Below are positions 1,047-43,801 of a DNA stretch of 47,953 nucleotides, piece after piece. The notes below the pieces were generated by a model. It did no database searches and was not told the origin of the DNA. It saw only the letters and a list, made by a program, of their open reading frames with translations. Made by a program: the position numbers and the translations under genes. Source of the stretch: a virus (Duplodnaviria > Heunggongvirae > Uroviricota > Caudoviricetes); the IMG/VR virus record IMGVR_UViG_2554235123_000011. One strand, written 5' to 3'. The first letter of the stretch is position 1. Each line of letters starts with the position of its first letter.

Positions 1047-1222
1047 TTACTCCCTGACAGGGTTCGTAGGCCACTCAATATCAGGTGCAGTTGATGTATC
1101 AACACGGTTCAGCAACACCCGATACTTTTTCCAGGCTTCCAGCAATGAGGTTTCTTCCTCCGTTGCAATTTCCAGATCTGCAGCATCCTGAAGCGGCGCA
1201 ATATGCTCACTGGCTACCTGCA
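1047..1222. repeat. Direct repeat copy 2 of the tfa 3' end
   Basis: See copy 1 at 1..175. Confidence 0.6.
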
Positions 1223-1631
1223 TCAGGTTGTTTTTTGTTTCTTCCGCCTCCCGGATCCGGAACAGTTTTTCTGCTTCCGTATCCTTCACCCAGGCTGTGC
1301 CGTTCCACTTCTGAAACTCCCCTTCCGGCGATAACCAGGTAACATTTTCCGGTAACGGACCGAGTTCAGAAATAAATAACTCGTCCCCTGACGCTACGTC
1401 ATAAACCGTTTTCCCCCGATGGTCTTCAACGAGATGCCACGATGCCTCATCACTGTTGAAAACAGCCACAAAGCCAGCAGGAATATCTGGTGGTGCAATA
1501 TCGGTACTGTTTGCTGGCAGACCTGTATGAGGCGGAATATATGCGTCACCTTCACCAATAAATTCATTAGTTCCGGCCAGCAGATTATAAATTTTTATGG
1601 TCCGTGCTTGTTCACTCATTCTGAATGCCAT
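1047..1631 (-). CDS. tfa: Tail fibre assembly protein Tfa (194 aa)
   Basis: Immediately downstream of stf with overlapping stop/start; conserved Tfa C-terminal domain; lambda-like position. Confidence 0.85.
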
Positions 1632-30189: not shown

Positions 30190-30544
30190 GGAGTTTACTC
30201 ACATCTGACAAAATCAATATAAACAGCCCCTCCGGAGAGGGGCTGGAGAGTGGCGCTATGTGCCATTGCATGGTGCCGGGTGCCTCCCGGTGAATTCAGT
30301 ACCAGCACCTGAATCCGCGATTATCCCATATACCTACTCGCTGATTGCCCCTCCGCACAGGGGGATTCACCATGCCAGTTTCTTTTAACAAACTCCCCGC
30401 AAACCAGACAACAGTCAACCGCCTGAATTGTGAAGTATTTAAAAATTTCTCCCGCTAACTGATACCCGGCTAACAGTCTGGCGTTTTCTTTTTCAGCAAC
30501 GGGAAAGCAACAACCACCACACCCACCAGCCGCCCATTTACCAC

Positions 30545-33892: not shown

Positions 33893-34048
33893 TTACTCCT
33901 CAGGTTCGTAAGCTGTGAAGACAGCGACCTCCGTCTGGCCGGTTCGGATTCGTACCTCGCAGAGGTCTTTCCTCGTTACCAGTGCCGTCACTATGACGGT
34001 TAAACAGATGACGATCAGGGCGATTAACATCGCCTTTTGCTGCTTCAT
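33893..34048 (-). CDS. hokD: Hok/Gef-family type I toxin (51 aa)
   Basis: MKQQKAMLIALIVICLTVIVTALVTRKDLCEVRIRTGQTEVAVFTAYEPEE, as remembered for HokD/RelF. Confidence 0.85.
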   Translation of the reverse strand: MKQQKAMLIALIVICLTVIVTALVTRKDLCEVRIRTGQTEVAVFTAYEPEE

Positions 34049-34309
34049 AGCCTGCTTCTCCTTGACCTTTCGGCCCGTAAGAGGCTAACCTACATGTGTC
34101 TAGCATGAAATATGGCCTCAGATTAATGTTAAGCGTCTTGCAGGACGCGTAATGTTAACTGGGGCTTTTCTCTATCTGCCTTTTGGTGTTCATGCCTGAG
34201 ACAGATAGCCTCAAGCACCCGCAGTTATTCTACTTAACTAAGATTTCCCCGCAAACCGTTTTTGTCCGGCACAGTAAATATCCAACTAAACCAATGGCGT
34301 TCGCTGTAT

Positions 34310-42217: not shown

Positions 42218-42516
42218 TTTATTCACAGGTGAGGTAGAGTGCGTGCGCCGGACACGGATAAGAATCCGGCACTGACAGTTTACTAAAAAGGATATATCCC
42301 TGAAAAGTCAGGGCATAACACGAAAGCGCCCGGCGAAGTTAGTCTCTCTGTATAGGTCGTCGTTAAATTTAATTCGATCGTGCGCTTCCGGTTGTGGCAA
42401 TCCGCGAAATGGCGCGGCGGTAAGTATGGCTGGGGTTTCCTCCATTGCTCCAGAAAATGCACCGGGTTGTCAGGTTGACCATACGCTTAAGTGACAGCCC
42501 CGCCACAATACCCATG

Positions 42517-42569
42517 TGTAGTCTTTGGTGGCATCAGTTCTACTCCGTGACTGCTCTGCCACCCTTTTT
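42517..42569 (+). ncRNA. dicF: DicF small RNA homologue
   Basis: tttggtggcatcagttctactccgtgactgctctgccacccttttt: conserved core TACTCCGTGACTGCTCTGCC and terminal hairpin GGTGGC/GCCACC plus T5. Confidence 0.8.
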
Positions 42570-42852
42570 AAAGTGAATTTTGTGATGCGGTGAATGCGGC
42601 TAAGCGCACGCGGAACAGTTAAAACCAAAAACAGTGTTATGGGTGGATTCTCTGTATCCGGCGTTAATTGTTAACTGGTTAACGTCACCTGGAGGCACCA
42701 GGCACCGCATCAACAAAGTTCACTTCGGTGATGAAAGGTAAGAGAAAATGTTGAATGTAGCTATTGAAAACCAGAACGGGTGGAATTATAGTGCACCTGC
42801 ACCTCATAAAACGGGTGCCGGGCGTGGAAACCCGGAATTCAATCAAGCGCAT

Positions 42853-42877
42853 AACCGCGCTCAGGCGGTTTTTTTAT
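42853..42877 (+). terminator. Intrinsic terminator-like hairpin between DicF and the Rha-like gene
   Basis: AACCGC-gctcag-GCGGTT followed by TTTTTTT. Confidence 0.45.
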
Positions 42878-43044
42878 GCGTCAAGCACAGCCACATTCAG
42901 ATTATGGTGGGGCGTGCAGGGCAGCTGCAAGGCTGGCCGGATTCTTGGTTGACCGGTATTTCCACCCCTGTACGCCTCACCACCCTTATGGTCGTGGAAA
43001 ACCTTGGTGGTGAGTTATTAATACTCAACCAAGAGGCTGCCATT

Positions 43045-43602
43045 ATGGCTACTATCCCTACCCTTTCTCACCCTGACGTAACCATCGAAAATGGTCGCGC
43101 TGTCACTACGTCTGTTGCGGTTGCAGAGTTCTTCCGCAAAATGCACAAGGACGTTCTGCGCAAAATTGAAACGCTAGAATGCTCTGAAGATTTTAACGAG
43201 CGCAATTTTACGCCCGTTACCTACACCGACGCCAAAGGCGAAAAACGCCCCATGTACCAAATCACCAAAAACGGCTTCGTTTTCCTGGTGATGGGGTTCA
43301 CAGGTAAAAAAGCCGCAACTTTCAAAGAAGCCTACATCGCTGAGTTCGATCGCATGGAGGAAGAACTGCGCCAGAATAACGCCCCGTCTCCCGACAAAAT
43401 GATTCACGGGGACGGACGCACCCTGGTTATCCGTCTCAACGAACACGGCAATATCAAATTCACTGAAACCGTTCCTGACGGCGCAATGGTCTGCACCCTG
43501 GATACCTTCCGGTTTTATCTGGAGAAACAAGGATGGACTCTTGTAAACCGGAGCGCAATTAAAAATATGACTGTGGAGCAATTGCTAAAAATTCATTGTT
43601 GA
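43045..43602 (+). CDS. Rha-family phage regulatory protein (~185 aa)
   Basis: ...AVTTSVAVAEFFRKMHKDVLRKIETL...RPMYQITKNGFVFLVMGFTGKKAATFKEAYIAEFDRMEEEL, Rha-like; SD AAGAGG. Confidence 0.65.
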   Translation: MATIPTLSHPDVTIENGRAVTTSVAVAEFFRKMHKDVLRKIETLECSEDFNERNFTPVTYTDAKGEKRPMYQITKNGFVFLVMGFTGKKAATFKEAYIAEFDRMEEELRQNNAPSPDKMIHGDGRTLVIRLNEHGNIKFTETVPDGAMVCTLDTFRFYLEKQGWTLVNRSAIKNMTVEQLLKIHC

Positions 43603-43612
43603 GGACGCGATA

Positions 43613-43801
43613 ATGGAAACGTCACTACCAAACGTTAATACGTCTGACGGGTGCTTTAATATTGGTGTTCTGCTCAGTAACAGGGATTTCACCGAGGATG
43701 CAATCAATATGAGAAAATATGAACCCTACCTGCTGAATGACAATTCCATACTCTCCAGAATTGCCCTTCTTAAACTCGGTATTTTCGGAGAGTGGCGATG
43801 A
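43613..43801 (+). CDS. dicB: Cell division inhibitor DicB (62 aa)
   Basis: METSLPNVNTSDGCFNIGVLLSN...TEDAINMRK...; K-12 DicB-like, same length. Confidence 0.85.
   Translation: METSLPNVNTSDGCFNIGVLLSNRDFTEDAINMRKYEPYLLNDNSILSRIALLKLGIFGEWR

What the first reader, a model, noticed from the sequence alone, without database searches (positions are those of the whole stretch)
42570..43602. Rha-like regulator inserted between DicF and dicB, preceded by a structured leader with an internal terminator
In the K-12 Qin arrangement as I remember it, dicF is closely followed by dicB. Here about 1 kb separates them. The six-frame track shows one 284-aa ORF (42748..43602), but a clean intrinsic terminator (42853..42877) lies inside its first 40 codons and a good SD/ATG at 43045 begins a Rha-family domain. 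I therefore read 42570..43040 as a structured non-coding leader (several hairpins, GTTAAC palindromes) and the gene as a 185-aa Rha-like protein. Rha-type proteins are anti-repressor-like regulators, and its placement inside the dicB operon would couple it to the immunity-region transcript.
Basis: partly seen in the sequence, partly recalled or inferred. Interest (0 to 1): 0.45.

Follow-up and report, generated by a model that had tools for sequence, protein, structure and literature searches.

The report
RNA-gated antirepressor cassette beside dicB
The ~0.87-kb insert between dicF and dicB is an intact copy of a known phage switch, the IsrK and C4 small RNAs with their own promoter and terminator (as in phages P4, P1 and Gifsy-1), sitting in front of a Rha-type antirepressor gene; it is real and well built, but it is a known kind of element.

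Summary
DicF (42513-42564) and dicB (43613-43801) are 1,048 nt apart, against 174 nt in K-12. The extra DNA is about 42723-43587.

The "structured leader" is two curated RNA genes. A C4-type antisense RNA follows (42900-42987, 78 bits). A promoter-like site (42764-42792) sits just upstream of IsrK. The conserved GAGG/ATG at 43045 starts a Rha-domain protein.

Phage P4 is homologous across the RNA part of the cassette, up to the start of the short gene (PLE, seqA, CI RNA, seqC, kil nested in eta). Gifsy-1 isrK-orf45-anrP is too. Across 34 diverged copies the RNA helices covary strongly. So do the pairings of C4 with a site in IsrK and a site next to the Rha ribosome-binding site.

Coding-type codon periodicity begins only at 43045. 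Yet the 284-aa frame is kept free of stops in nearly all relatives, and spacer lengths change almost only in multiples of three. A start codon with a ribosome-binding site recurs just upstream of the internal promoter.

This matches the P4 eta/kil design. Ribosomes on upstream-promoter transcripts read through the RNA elements. The internal promoter makes the regulatory RNAs.

Verdict: new member of a known kind, of modest interest.

The parts
42513..42564 (+). DicF sRNA. Context only; it marks the left neighbour of the cassette.
   Evidence: Rfam RF00039, 61.1 bits, E 4.5e-11.
42565..42722 (+). Ordinary dicF-dicB spacer shared with K-12 Qin. It is strongly structured and contains the GTTAAC palindromes. 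It is not part of the insert.
   Evidence: Almost identical to K-12 (two differences over 42565-42715). Homology with K-12 ends at about 42722. Fold z = -5.3 here and -5.5 in K-12. The two differences in the long closing stem are wobble-compatible.
42748..43602 (+). Long 284-aa reading frame, the positional equivalent of P4 eta. Its ATG at 42748 lies upstream of the internal promoter, so it can only be on transcripts arriving from the dicB-operon promoter. The first 99 codons run through IsrK and C4.
   Evidence: ORF list. Annotated by PGAP as WP_000935596.1. The frame is stop-free in 55/55 relatives, against 42/55 and 54/55 with stops in the other frames. In 33 clusters below 92% identity, frame 0 has stops in 2 (upstream half) and 4 (downstream half). 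An in-frame ATG 52-59 codons before the C4 AUG, usually with a ribosome-binding site, recurs in many contexts. There is no codon periodicity before 43045.
42764..42792 (+). Internal sigma-70-type promoter-like site (TTGAAA, 17 nt, TATAGT). It places the start at about 42799. It is the equivalent of P4 PLE and the Gifsy-1 isrK promoter.
   Evidence: Best promoter match in the region, 10 of 12. The -35 ATTGA is invariant and the -10 position is conserved in seven phage copies. The -10 TATAGT aligns with P4 and Gifsy-1. Activity was not tested here.
42799..42877 (+). IsrK sRNA (the P4 seqA element and P1 a1/b1 element). It has two 5' hairpins, a single-stranded tail and the intrinsic terminator (stem 42853-42870 plus T-run). 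It carries the upstream C4-complementary sites a1 (about 42820-42835) and b1 (42839-42846).
   Evidence: Rfam RF01394, 69.2 bits against a gathering score of 50, E 7.6e-13, full length. Terminator scan. Compensatory changes occur in hairpin 1 (6 of 6 pairs) and in the terminator (4 of 6 pairs). Pairing with the C4 arm is 90.9% kept, with covariation 0.602 against 0.141 or less for shifted controls.
42900..42987 (+). C4/CI-type antisense RNA (STnc1160 in Gifsy-1). It has a long closing stem and two inner hairpins. Its recognition elements are the loop 42944-42952 and the 3' arm 42953-42968.
   Evidence: Rfam RF01695, 78 bits against a gathering score of 45, E 1.1e-13, full length. Fold -47.4 kcal/mol, z = -5.05. 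The stems are 98-99.7% paired, with 8 pairs showing double changes.
42904..42906 (+). AUG inside the 5' strand of the C4 stem, equivalent to the first AUG of Gifsy-1 orf45. Here it is in frame with the Rha gene, which would give a potential 232-aa form.
   Evidence: ATTATGGTGGG is invariant in all aligned copies. It lies at position 106 from the IsrK start, against A107 in Gifsy-1 (PMC4825925). The distance to the downstream ATG is 138 or 141 nt in 53 of 60 copies, and 140 nt (the Gifsy-type ATGA overlap) in 6.
42990..43036 (+). Downstream C4 target sites, the equivalent of P4 seqC and P1 a2/b2. They are a2 (about 42990-43003, GGTCGTGGAAAACC) and b2 (43025-43032, TCAACCAA). b2 abuts the GAGG ribosome-binding site at 43033-43036.
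   Evidence: The motif covaries three ways with IsrK and the C4 arm in at least 10 specificity classes. The helix 42947-52 with 43025-30 is 83.5% paired and all 6 pairs covary. Cognate duplexes average -23.5 kcal/mol against -18.0 for non-cognate ones.
43045..43602 (+). The 185-aa Rha-type antirepressor-like protein, the equivalent of P4 kil and Gifsy-1 anrP in position. The N-terminal part is a Rha domain. The C-terminal part resembles the AnrP family.
   Evidence: Pfam Phage_pRha E 2.1e-31, residues 21-106. TIGR02681. phrog_995 and phrog_518, and phrog_2379 (the AnrP family) at residues 100-172, E 5.9e-9. The ribosome-binding site and ATG are invariant. Codon-position entropy is 0.47/0.40/0.98 from 43045 onward. 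The first residues MATIPTLSHPD align with P4 Kil MATTLTPSHPE.
43613..43801 (+). dicB. Context only; it marks the right neighbour. K-12 homology resumes at 43588.
   Evidence: Pfam DicB E 1.3e-32. BLAST to K-12.

Best explanation
The insert at about 42723-43602 is a P4-type RNA immunity cassette of the IsrK-C4 kind. It controls a Rha-domain antirepressor-like gene and sits in the early-left (dicB) operon of a lambdoid prophage.

Shown here from sequence:
- The internal promoter-like site, the IsrK sRNA ending at the intrinsic terminator, and the C4 antisense RNA are all present and intact.
- C4's loop and 3' arm are complementary to two sites in IsrK, and to two sites immediately 5' of the Rha ribosome-binding site.
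- Two nested in-frame starts exist, at 42748 and 43045, with a third in-frame AUG at 42904.

Inferred from P4, P1 and Gifsy-1:
1. While the DicA-like repressor keeps the operon off, the internal promoter fires. Most transcripts stop at the terminator as 77-nt IsrK. Read-through RNA yields C4. C4 pairs with the sites next to the ribosome-binding site, or the RNA folds so that those sites are buried. Rha is then not made.
2. Excess IsrK pairs with the C4 arm, opens the structure and permits translation from 42904 and/or 43045. This is the Gifsy-1 mechanism.
3. When the operon promoter is derepressed, transcripts arriving from dicF carry the ATG at 42748. Ribosomes then read through the terminator and C4. 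This prevents termination and RNA repression. It yields the long Rha form and lets transcription continue into dicB, exo, xis and int. This is the P4 eta mechanism.

The Rha protein most likely antagonises a prophage repressor, as AnrP does in Gifsy-1.
For: RNA genes and promoter:
- Rfam full-length matches to isrK and C4 are well above their gathering scores.
- The same pair of RNA genes, in the same order, is found in Gifsy-1, in P4 and in six lambdoid phages.
- The promoter-like site ends 7 nt before the IsrK start and is positionally conserved.

Covariation across 34 copies below 92% identity:
- Local helices are 94.3% paired, with 21 pairs changed on both sides. The score is 0.286 against 0.058 or less for shifted controls.
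- The IsrK-C4 pairing is 90.9% paired, with a score of 0.602 against 0.141 or less.
- The pairing of the C4 loop with the site next to the ribosome-binding site is 83.5% paired, with all six pairs covarying.
- Cognate RNA pairs are 5-8 kcal/mol more stable than non-cognate ones.
- The minimum-energy fold of 42799-43060 reproduces "structure A" of Hershko-Shalev 2016, with the middle of IsrK paired to the C4 3' arm (PMC4825925).

Homology with P4:
- It runs from the -10 element through seqA, CI and seqC to the kil ribosome-binding site, ATG and first codons.
- P4 eta carries the same Pfam Phage_ASH match.

Nested-frame evidence.

P4 mechanism as summarised in PMC10111431:
- The promoter is internal to eta.
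- CI and seqA drive termination.
- Kil is a truncated Eta.
- Translation of Eta from an upstream promoter prevents termination.

Other literature: the IsrK/C4 = seqA/CI equivalence, and their presence in lambdoid prophages, are stated in PMC3632133.
Against: - No expression data were available for this locus. Promoter activity, the RNA ends, C4 processing and the protein isoforms are all unverified here.
- The ribosome-binding site before the ATG at 42748 is weak (AAGAG).
- The published systems disagree on the sign of regulation. C4/CI represses in P1 and P4, while IsrK activates in Gifsy-1. Which effect dominates here is a guess.
- The cargo protein is not an AnrP orthologue. Its N-terminal domain is Rha, not ORF6N. 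No Rha-family member of this cassette type has a demonstrated target.
- Relatedness among the compared copies inflates the shuffle statistics.
- Pairing to the a2 site is only 64% kept in the register taken from the window.
Confidence: 0.78

Rival explanations
1. The region 42570-43040 is purely a non-coding structured leader of the dicB-operon transcript. The only gene is the 185-aa Rha protein. The 284-aa ORF is an accident that is never translated.
For: The RNA structure, the terminator, and the invariant ribosome-binding site and ATG at 43045 are all real. There is no codon periodicity upstream of 43045. The Pfam Phage_ASH match coincides exactly with the RNA elements.
Against: The frame is free of stops in 55/55 relatives at a median of 65% identity. 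The other frames carry stops in 42/55 and 54/55, and 96% of shuffles carry one. Spacer lengths are 105, 114, 102, 144 and 108 nt, and 138 or 141 nt, all multiples of three apart from rare cases. P4 has a 78-nt in-frame insertion. A start codon, usually with a ribosome-binding site, recurs just 5' of the -35 element in unrelated flanks. The module has its own promoter, so it is not merely a leader. 42570-42722 is K-12 spacer.
Confidence: 0.12
2. The database annotation is right. A single 284-aa two-domain protein (Ash plus Rha) is made, and the RNA-family matches are incidental.
For: PGAP annotates the long ORF. Pfam Phage_ASH scores 52.6 bits against a cut-off of 26. The frame is conserved.
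Against: Substitutions upstream of 43045 are compensatory in RNA helices rather than concentrated at third codon positions. There is three-way covariation of short motifs between non-adjacent sites. An intrinsic terminator and a promoter are conserved inside the "domain". In P4 and Gifsy-1 the homologous DNA is experimentally an RNA switch (PMC4825925; PMC10111431).
Confidence: 0.03
3. The cassette is an inert relic. It is intact in sequence but no longer used, because the prophage is cryptic or the partner repressor is absent.
For: Many dicB-type prophages are defective. The Rha target is unknown.
Against: All elements are intact. The complementarity is preserved (-36 kcal/mol for IsrK with the C4 arm). 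The ORF is unbroken. The sequence is 99.9% identical in many genomes. The prophage still has terminase, lysis, Q, replication, xis and int genes.
Confidence: 0.07

Closest known systems
Satellite phage P4 immunity region (PLE, seqA, cI RNA, seqC, with kil nested in eta)
   Same: The DNA is homologous from the -10 element through seqA (IsrK), CI (C4) and seqC to the ribosome-binding site, ATG and first codons of the short gene. Both have a promoter internal to a long ORF, with a short ORF nested in the same frame. Both have three-way complementarity.
   Different: The cargo is a 185-aa Rha-domain protein, not the 65-aa Kil. P4 has about 84 nt more between IsrK and C4, and a 78-nt insertion inside C4. 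The specificity motif differs by two bases (GTGGAAAC here, GTGAGAAC in P4). The host element is a lambdoid prophage, not a satellite. The long ORF here starts only 17 codons before IsrK and is not coupled to an alpA/vis homologue.
Salmonella Gifsy-1 isrK-orf45-anrP locus (Hershko-Shalev et al. 2016, PMC4825925)
   Same: IsrK, a C4-like RNA (STnc1160) and the downstream antirepressor-type gene have the same order and spacing. The predicted long-range helix between the middle of IsrK and the C4 3' arm is the same. The C-terminal half of the protein matches the AnrP family (phrog_2379, E 5.9e-9).
   Different: In Gifsy-1, orf45 is a separate 45-codon ORF whose stop overlaps the anrP AUG (ATGA). 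Here the equivalent AUG (42904) is in frame with the gene, as in most relatives. The N-terminal domain is Rha here and ORF6N in AnrP. Gifsy-1 has antQ upstream and isrJ downstream. Here the neighbours are dicF and dicB.
Phage P1/P7 immI operon (c4, icd, ant1/ant2)
   Same: A C4 antisense RNA is made from the same transcript as its target. Target sites are duplicated upstream and at the ribosome-binding site of the downstream gene. An antirepressor is the regulated product, and it has in-frame long and short forms. A P1-like phage "Icd" start region matches 43033-43076.
   Different: There is no icd gene and no P1 Ant homologue. The upstream target sites here lie in a separately terminated sRNA (IsrK). 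This comparison rests partly on my own knowledge of the P1 literature, which I could not read here.
Long "antirepressor" ORFs between cII and O in Stx-converting and other lambdoid phages (Stx2a_1447, ST64B sb41, cdtI orf44, phiP27 L16)
   Same: They have the same IsrK-C4-Rha cassette, 70-84% identical, annotated as a single 219-385-aa protein.
   Different: They sit in the rightward (cro-cII-O) operon, with about 120 extra upstream codons overlapping the cII stop. The window's copy is in the leftward dicB operon, with a minimal 17-codon lead-in.

Membership tests
Rfam isrK (RF01394) | Full-length covariance-model match at or above the gathering score | tested here: met
   69.2 bits against 50, model positions 1-77 of 77, E 7.6e-13.
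Rfam isrK (RF01394) | Two 5' hairpins plus a Rho-independent terminator, supported by compensatory changes | tested here: met
   Hairpin 1 has 6 of 6 pairs with double changes and the terminator 4 of 6. Pairing is 95%, 96% and 79% for the three helices. The terminator scan also finds it.
Rfam isrK (RF01394) | Made as a primary transcript from its own promoter | tested here: inconclusive
   A TTGAAA-17-TATAGT site ends 7 nt before the start and is positionally conserved. There is no transcript data for this locus.
Rfam C4 antisense RNA (RF01695) / P4 CI RNA | Full-length model match and a conserved stem architecture | tested here: met
   78 bits against 45, E 1.1e-13. Stems are 98-99.7% paired, with 8 covarying pairs. 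Fold z = -5.05.
Rfam C4 antisense RNA (RF01695) / P4 CI RNA | Complementarity to two target sets, one upstream (seqA, a1/b1) and one at the downstream gene's ribosome-binding site (seqC, a2/b2) | tested here: met
   Upstream set: 90.9% paired, covariation 0.602. Downstream set: the b2 helix is 83.5% paired with all pairs covarying, while the a2 helix is 64% paired in the window register. Cognate duplexes are more stable than non-cognate ones.
Rfam C4 antisense RNA (RF01695) / P4 CI RNA | Processed from a longer transcript (RNase P, PNPase) into a stable small RNA | not testable with these tools
   This needs Northern blots or RNA end mapping.
P4-type nested eta/kil immunity cassette | A long ORF that starts upstream of the internal promoter and contains, in frame, the short gene with its own ribosome-binding site | tested here: met
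   The ATG at 42748 is 16 nt before the -35 element. The ATG at 43045 is in the same frame. The design is conserved in 84 of 86 relatives. P4 ORF 8168-8812 has the same layout.
P4-type nested eta/kil immunity cassette | Translation of the long ORF prevents termination; the short form is made only on read-through | not testable with these tools
   This is inferred from frame conservation without codon periodicity and from the P4 account in PMC10111431.
Gifsy-1 isrK-orf45-anrP operon | A separate short ORF (orf45) whose stop overlaps the start of the antirepressor gene | tested here: not met
   The AUG at 42904 is in frame with the ATG at 43045, with no stop between them. The 45-aa ORF at 42876-43013 is in another frame and ends 32 nt before the gene.
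Gifsy-1 isrK-orf45-anrP operon | The downstream protein is an AnrP orthologue | tested here: not met
   BLASTP gives only 23% identity over 75 C-terminal residues, E 0.003. The N-terminal domains differ, Rha here and ORF6N in AnrP. The C-terminal region does match phrog_2379.
Pfam Phage_pRha (PF09669) / TIGR02681 | Domain match above the curated cut-off | tested here: met
   108.8 bits against 29.9. 110.1 bits against 45.95.
Pfam Phage_ASH (PF10554) | A protein domain, which should show protein-level constraint | tested here: not met
   The score passes (52.6 bits). However, the matched residues 14-109 are exactly IsrK plus C4. Codon-position entropy there is flat (0.47/0.50/0.51 and 0.54/0.51/0.54), against 0.47/0.40/0.98 in the Rha domain. 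The family appears to model the translation of conserved RNA. P4 eta is its best match.

The most novel reading that the evidence does not exclude
The cassette may be more than a private switch for one antirepressor.

First, its position. It sits between the DicA-controlled promoter and dicB-exo-xis-int. Expression of the division inhibitor and the excision genes may therefore depend on ribosomes reading through an sRNA terminator, a translation-gated checkpoint inside an early operon.

Second, its specificity. At least 10 short interchangeable specificity motifs exist, some of them carried side by side in tandem arrays. They could form an RNA "immunity code". Through it, co-resident lambdoid prophages and P4-like satellites would sense or block one another's antirepressors. 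Barquist et al. 2013 speculated along these lines.
Probability: 0.2. Interest if true: 0.6.

Novelty: new member of a known kind. Interest (0 to 1): 0.28.

Why it matters
It corrects the annotation of a gene found in about 7% of complete E. coli genomes. The "Rha family protein" of 284 aa is really a 185-aa protein domain preceded by two regulatory RNA genes that are read through, not a two-domain protein.

It suggests that Pfam Phage_ASH models translated RNA rather than a protein domain.

It also places an RNA-controlled antirepressor and an intrinsic terminator directly upstream of dicB, exo, xis and int. Anyone studying DicF or DicB expression, or induction of these prophages, in non-K-12 strains needs to know this.

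The switch itself is already understood from P4, P1 and Gifsy-1.

Tried and rejected
1. I first took the 45-aa ORF at 42876-43013 for the Gifsy-1 orf45. I rejected this. The orf45 AUG (A107) aligns with 42904, which is in a different frame.
2. A genome-contig scan with a pattern of 16 specified bases returned mostly chance hits in unrelated phyla. A pattern of 21 specified bases on viral contigs worked.
3. The primary P4 papers (Sabbattini 1995, PMC176756; Forti 1999, PMC94026) are not held. The P4 mechanism is therefore cited second-hand from PMC10111431 and PMC3632133, and from my own knowledge.
4. The generic terminator and promoter scans alone are not above chance (8 against 5.1, and 8 against 5.7). 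I did not rely on them.
5. The helix register for the a2 site taken from the window fits the alignment poorly, because of a 3-nt indel class. The motif-level three-way covariation and the duplex energies are the better evidence.
6. I considered that the open frame could be inherited by chance. I rejected this because stops arise at more than 25 different positions in each of the other two frames, and because length changes preserve the frame.
Full report
**1. What is in the sequence**

Rfam places DicF at 42513-42564. Pfam places DicB at 43613-43801. The two are 1,048 nt apart, against 174 nt in K-12 Qin.

BLAST against K-12 shows that window 42300-42722 and 43588-43724 are the K-12 dicF region and dicB. 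The extra DNA is therefore about 42723-43587.

It is almost identical to the K-12 dicF-dicB spacer, with two differences over 42565-42715. It belongs to the ordinary operon.

The 284-aa ORF (42748-43602), the hairpin with its T-run at 42853-42877, and the GAGG/ATG at 43033/43045 are all present.

**2. Identity of the "structured leader"**

A scan of the whole window against Rfam at gathering thresholds gives two full-length matches inside the ORF's first 99 codons:
- isrK at 42799-42875 (69.2 bits, E 7.6e-13).
- C4 antisense RNA at 42900-42987 (78 bits, E 1.1e-13).

The best sigma-70-like site of the region, TTGAAA-17-TATAGT at 42764-42792, ends seven bases before the IsrK start.

The same isrK-then-C4 pair, with the same spacing and followed by an antirepressor-type gene, occurs in several other places:
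- six lambdoid phages (Stx2a_1447, ST64B, cdtI, Stx1_499, Lys8385Vzw, phiP27);
- Gifsy-1, between antQ and anrP;
- satellite phage P4.

Alignment with P4 and Gifsy-1 shows homology from the -10 element through IsrK and C4. It continues to the ribosome-binding site, ATG and first codons of the downstream gene.

Barquist et al. state that IsrK and C4 are the seqA and CI RNA elements of P4. They also note that lambdoid prophages carry them (PMC3632133).

**3. Evidence that the RNAs are under selection as RNAs**

I collected 93 distinct copies, with a median of 65% identity to the window. I reduced them to 33 clusters below 92% identity and added Gifsy-1 (alignment A5).

| Structure tested | Cells paired | Pairs or cells with changes on both sides | Covariation score | Shifted controls |
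|---|---|---|---|---|
| IsrK and C4 local helices | 94.3% | 21 pairs | 0.286 | 0.058 or less |
| Middle and tail of IsrK with C4 loop and 3' arm | 90.9% | 168 cells | 0.602 | 0.141 or less |
| C4 loop (42947-52) with 43025-30, touching the GAGG | 83.5% | all six pairs | not scored separately | not scored separately |

- No shuffle of 500 reached the observed local-helix score.
- The a2 site (42990-43003) is less well captured in the window register, at 64% paired. It visibly covaries as a motif.
- At least ten specificity classes share one short word in IsrK, its complement in C4, and the word again downstream. Examples are GTGGAAAC / GTTTCCAC / GTGGAAAAC here and TTGGCGTC / GACGCCAA / TTGGCGTC elsewhere.
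- Cognate duplexes are more stable than non-cognate ones: -33.0 against -24.6 kcal/mol, and -23.5 against -18.0 kcal/mol.
- The minimum-energy fold of 42799-43060 (z = -3.98) pairs the middle of IsrK with the C4 3' arm. This is the translationally inactive "structure A" shown by mutation in Gifsy-1 (PMC4825925).

**4. One gene or two? The 284-aa frame**

Coding-type codon periodicity starts at 43045.

| Segment | Entropy at codon positions 1 / 2 / 3 |
|---|---|
| Rha domain | 0.47 / 0.40 / 0.98 |
| IsrK | 0.47 / 0.50 / 0.51 |
| Spacer between IsrK and C4 | 1.04 / 1.00 / 1.08 |
| C4 | 0.54 / 0.51 / 0.54 |
| C4 end to the ATG | 0.68 / 0.76 / 0.78 |

The 5' 99 codons are therefore not a protein domain under amino-acid selection. 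The Pfam Phage_ASH match (residues 14-109) is the translation of the conserved RNAs. Its best match is P4 eta.

Even so, the frame is clearly kept open.
- No stop occurs between the IsrK start and the downstream ATG in 55 of 55 copies. The other frames carry stops in 42 and 54 of 55, and 96% of shuffles carry one.
- Among the 33 clusters, frame 0 has stops in 2 (upstream half) and 4 (downstream half). The other frames have stops in 20-31, at more than 25 different positions each.
- The distance from IsrK to the C4 AUG is 105, 114, 102, 144 or 108 nt in 76 of 78 copies.
- The distance from the C4 AUG to the gene's ATG is 138 or 141 nt in 53 of 60. It is 140 nt, the Gifsy-type ATGA overlap, in 6.
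- P4's extra 78 nt inside C4 is also in frame.
- In 84 of 86 copies the frame stays open beyond the internal promoter.
- In many unrelated flanks a start codon, usually with a ribosome-binding site, sits 12-20 nt before the -35 element. The window has one at 42748.

This is the P4 design as summarised in PMC10111431:
- A constitutive promoter lies inside eta.
- Its transcript is terminated through CI and seqA.
- Kil is a truncated Eta made on read-through.
- Full-length Eta is translated only from an upstream promoter, and that translation prevents termination.

The window's MATIPTLSHPD aligns with the Kil start MATTLTPSHPE.

**5. Most likely mechanism**

Shown here:
- the elements themselves and their complementarities;
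- their covariation;
- the nested frames.

Inferred from P4, P1 and Gifsy-1:
1. In the repressed prophage, the internal promoter makes IsrK and, by read-through, C4. C4 pairing at the sites abutting the ribosome-binding site, or the folded "structure A", keeps Rha off.
2. IsrK in excess frees the structure and allows translation from 42904 and/or 43045.
3. When the DicA-like repressor is lost, transcripts from the operon promoter carry the ATG at 42748. Ribosomes then run through the terminator and C4. The long Rha form is made and transcription proceeds into dicB, exonuclease, xis and int (context).

The protein has a Rha N-terminal domain. Its C-terminal part resembles the AnrP antirepressor family (phrog_2379, E 5.9e-9). 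An antirepressor role is a family-level inference.

**6. Comparison and novelty**

The cassette is a member of the IsrK-C4 (seqA-CI) class. It differs from each described example.
- From P4, in cargo and host element.
- From Gifsy-1, in lacking a separate orf45 and in its N-terminal domain.
- From the Stx-phage copies, in lying in the leftward dicB operon with a minimal lead-in.

The exact sequence is common: 386 of 5,426 E. coli genomes cover at least 80% of the query, many at 99.9% identity. It is annotated only as a long Rha protein.

Neuhaus et al. already noted that isrK and C4 hits lie inside genes on the same strand in EHEC (PMC5331693).

I found no paper describing the dicF-cassette-dicB arrangement. 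I rate it a new member of a known kind, of modest interest.

**7. Limits**

- There is no transcript or protein evidence for this locus.
- The primary P4 papers could not be read.
- The compared copies are related, so shuffle counts overstate significance.
- The sign of IsrK and C4 control here is extrapolated from other systems.

Noticed in passing
window 42787-43075 (residues 14-109 of the 284-aa ORF); L250 8168-8812(-): Pfam Phage_ASH (PF10554) matches exactly the IsrK-C4 stretch here, in six phages and in P4 eta. That stretch shows RNA covariation and no codon periodicity. The Pfam family seems to model the conceptual translation of conserved RNA genes.
   Followed up: partly
L143 (three copies 656 nt apart); also L136, L137, L171, L173, L196, L227: Some viral contigs carry two or three IsrK-C4-small-Rha cassettes in tandem. 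Within an array each copy examined has a different specificity word (for example CGCAG, GGCGT and GGAAC in L143). This suggests arrays of independently addressed antirepressor switches.
   Followed up: partly
window 42574-42722; L002 2936-3109: The dicF-dicB spacer shared with K-12 folds into a long closed structure (-58.7 kcal/mol, z = -5.3; K-12 z = -5.5). The only two differences in its closing stem are wobble-compatible. It may be the processing site that releases DicF.
   Followed up: partly
window 42709-42722 and 43586-43600: Both junctions of the insert keep a copy of the K-12 sequence ACAAAATTCATTG. The left junction reads ACAAAGTTCACTT and the right reads TAAAAATTCATTG. This hints at insertion or exchange at a short repeat. 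The Rha stop codon lies inside the dicB ribosome-binding-site region.
   Followed up: no
window 42634-42717 (L001 4155-4238): PGAP annotates a 28-codon "DicB, incomplete" pseudogene inside the dicF-dicB spacer. It is probably an artefact of longer DicB models reaching into the spacer.
   Followed up: no
window 43033-43076: The ribosome-binding site and first ten codons of the Rha gene match the start of an annotated Icd protein gene in a P1-like phage (vB_EcoM-673R5; 88.6% over 44 nt). The 3' edge of the regulatory cassette may therefore extend into the coding start and travel with it between different cargo genes.
   Followed up: no
window 1090-1288(-), 30215-30404(-), 34046-34220(-): Other Rfam matches in the window are IS009 (225 bits), STnc100 (132 bits) and a sok antitoxin RNA (113 bits). 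The sok match lies next to the hokD-type toxin gene of the same prophage.
   Followed up: no
L242, L040, L248, L145: Four diverged cassettes break the in-frame rule. They have 15-37-codon ORFs from the C4 AUG, and the downstream gene starts differently (for example ATGAATAC). Frame linkage therefore seems to depend on the cargo type.
   Followed up: no
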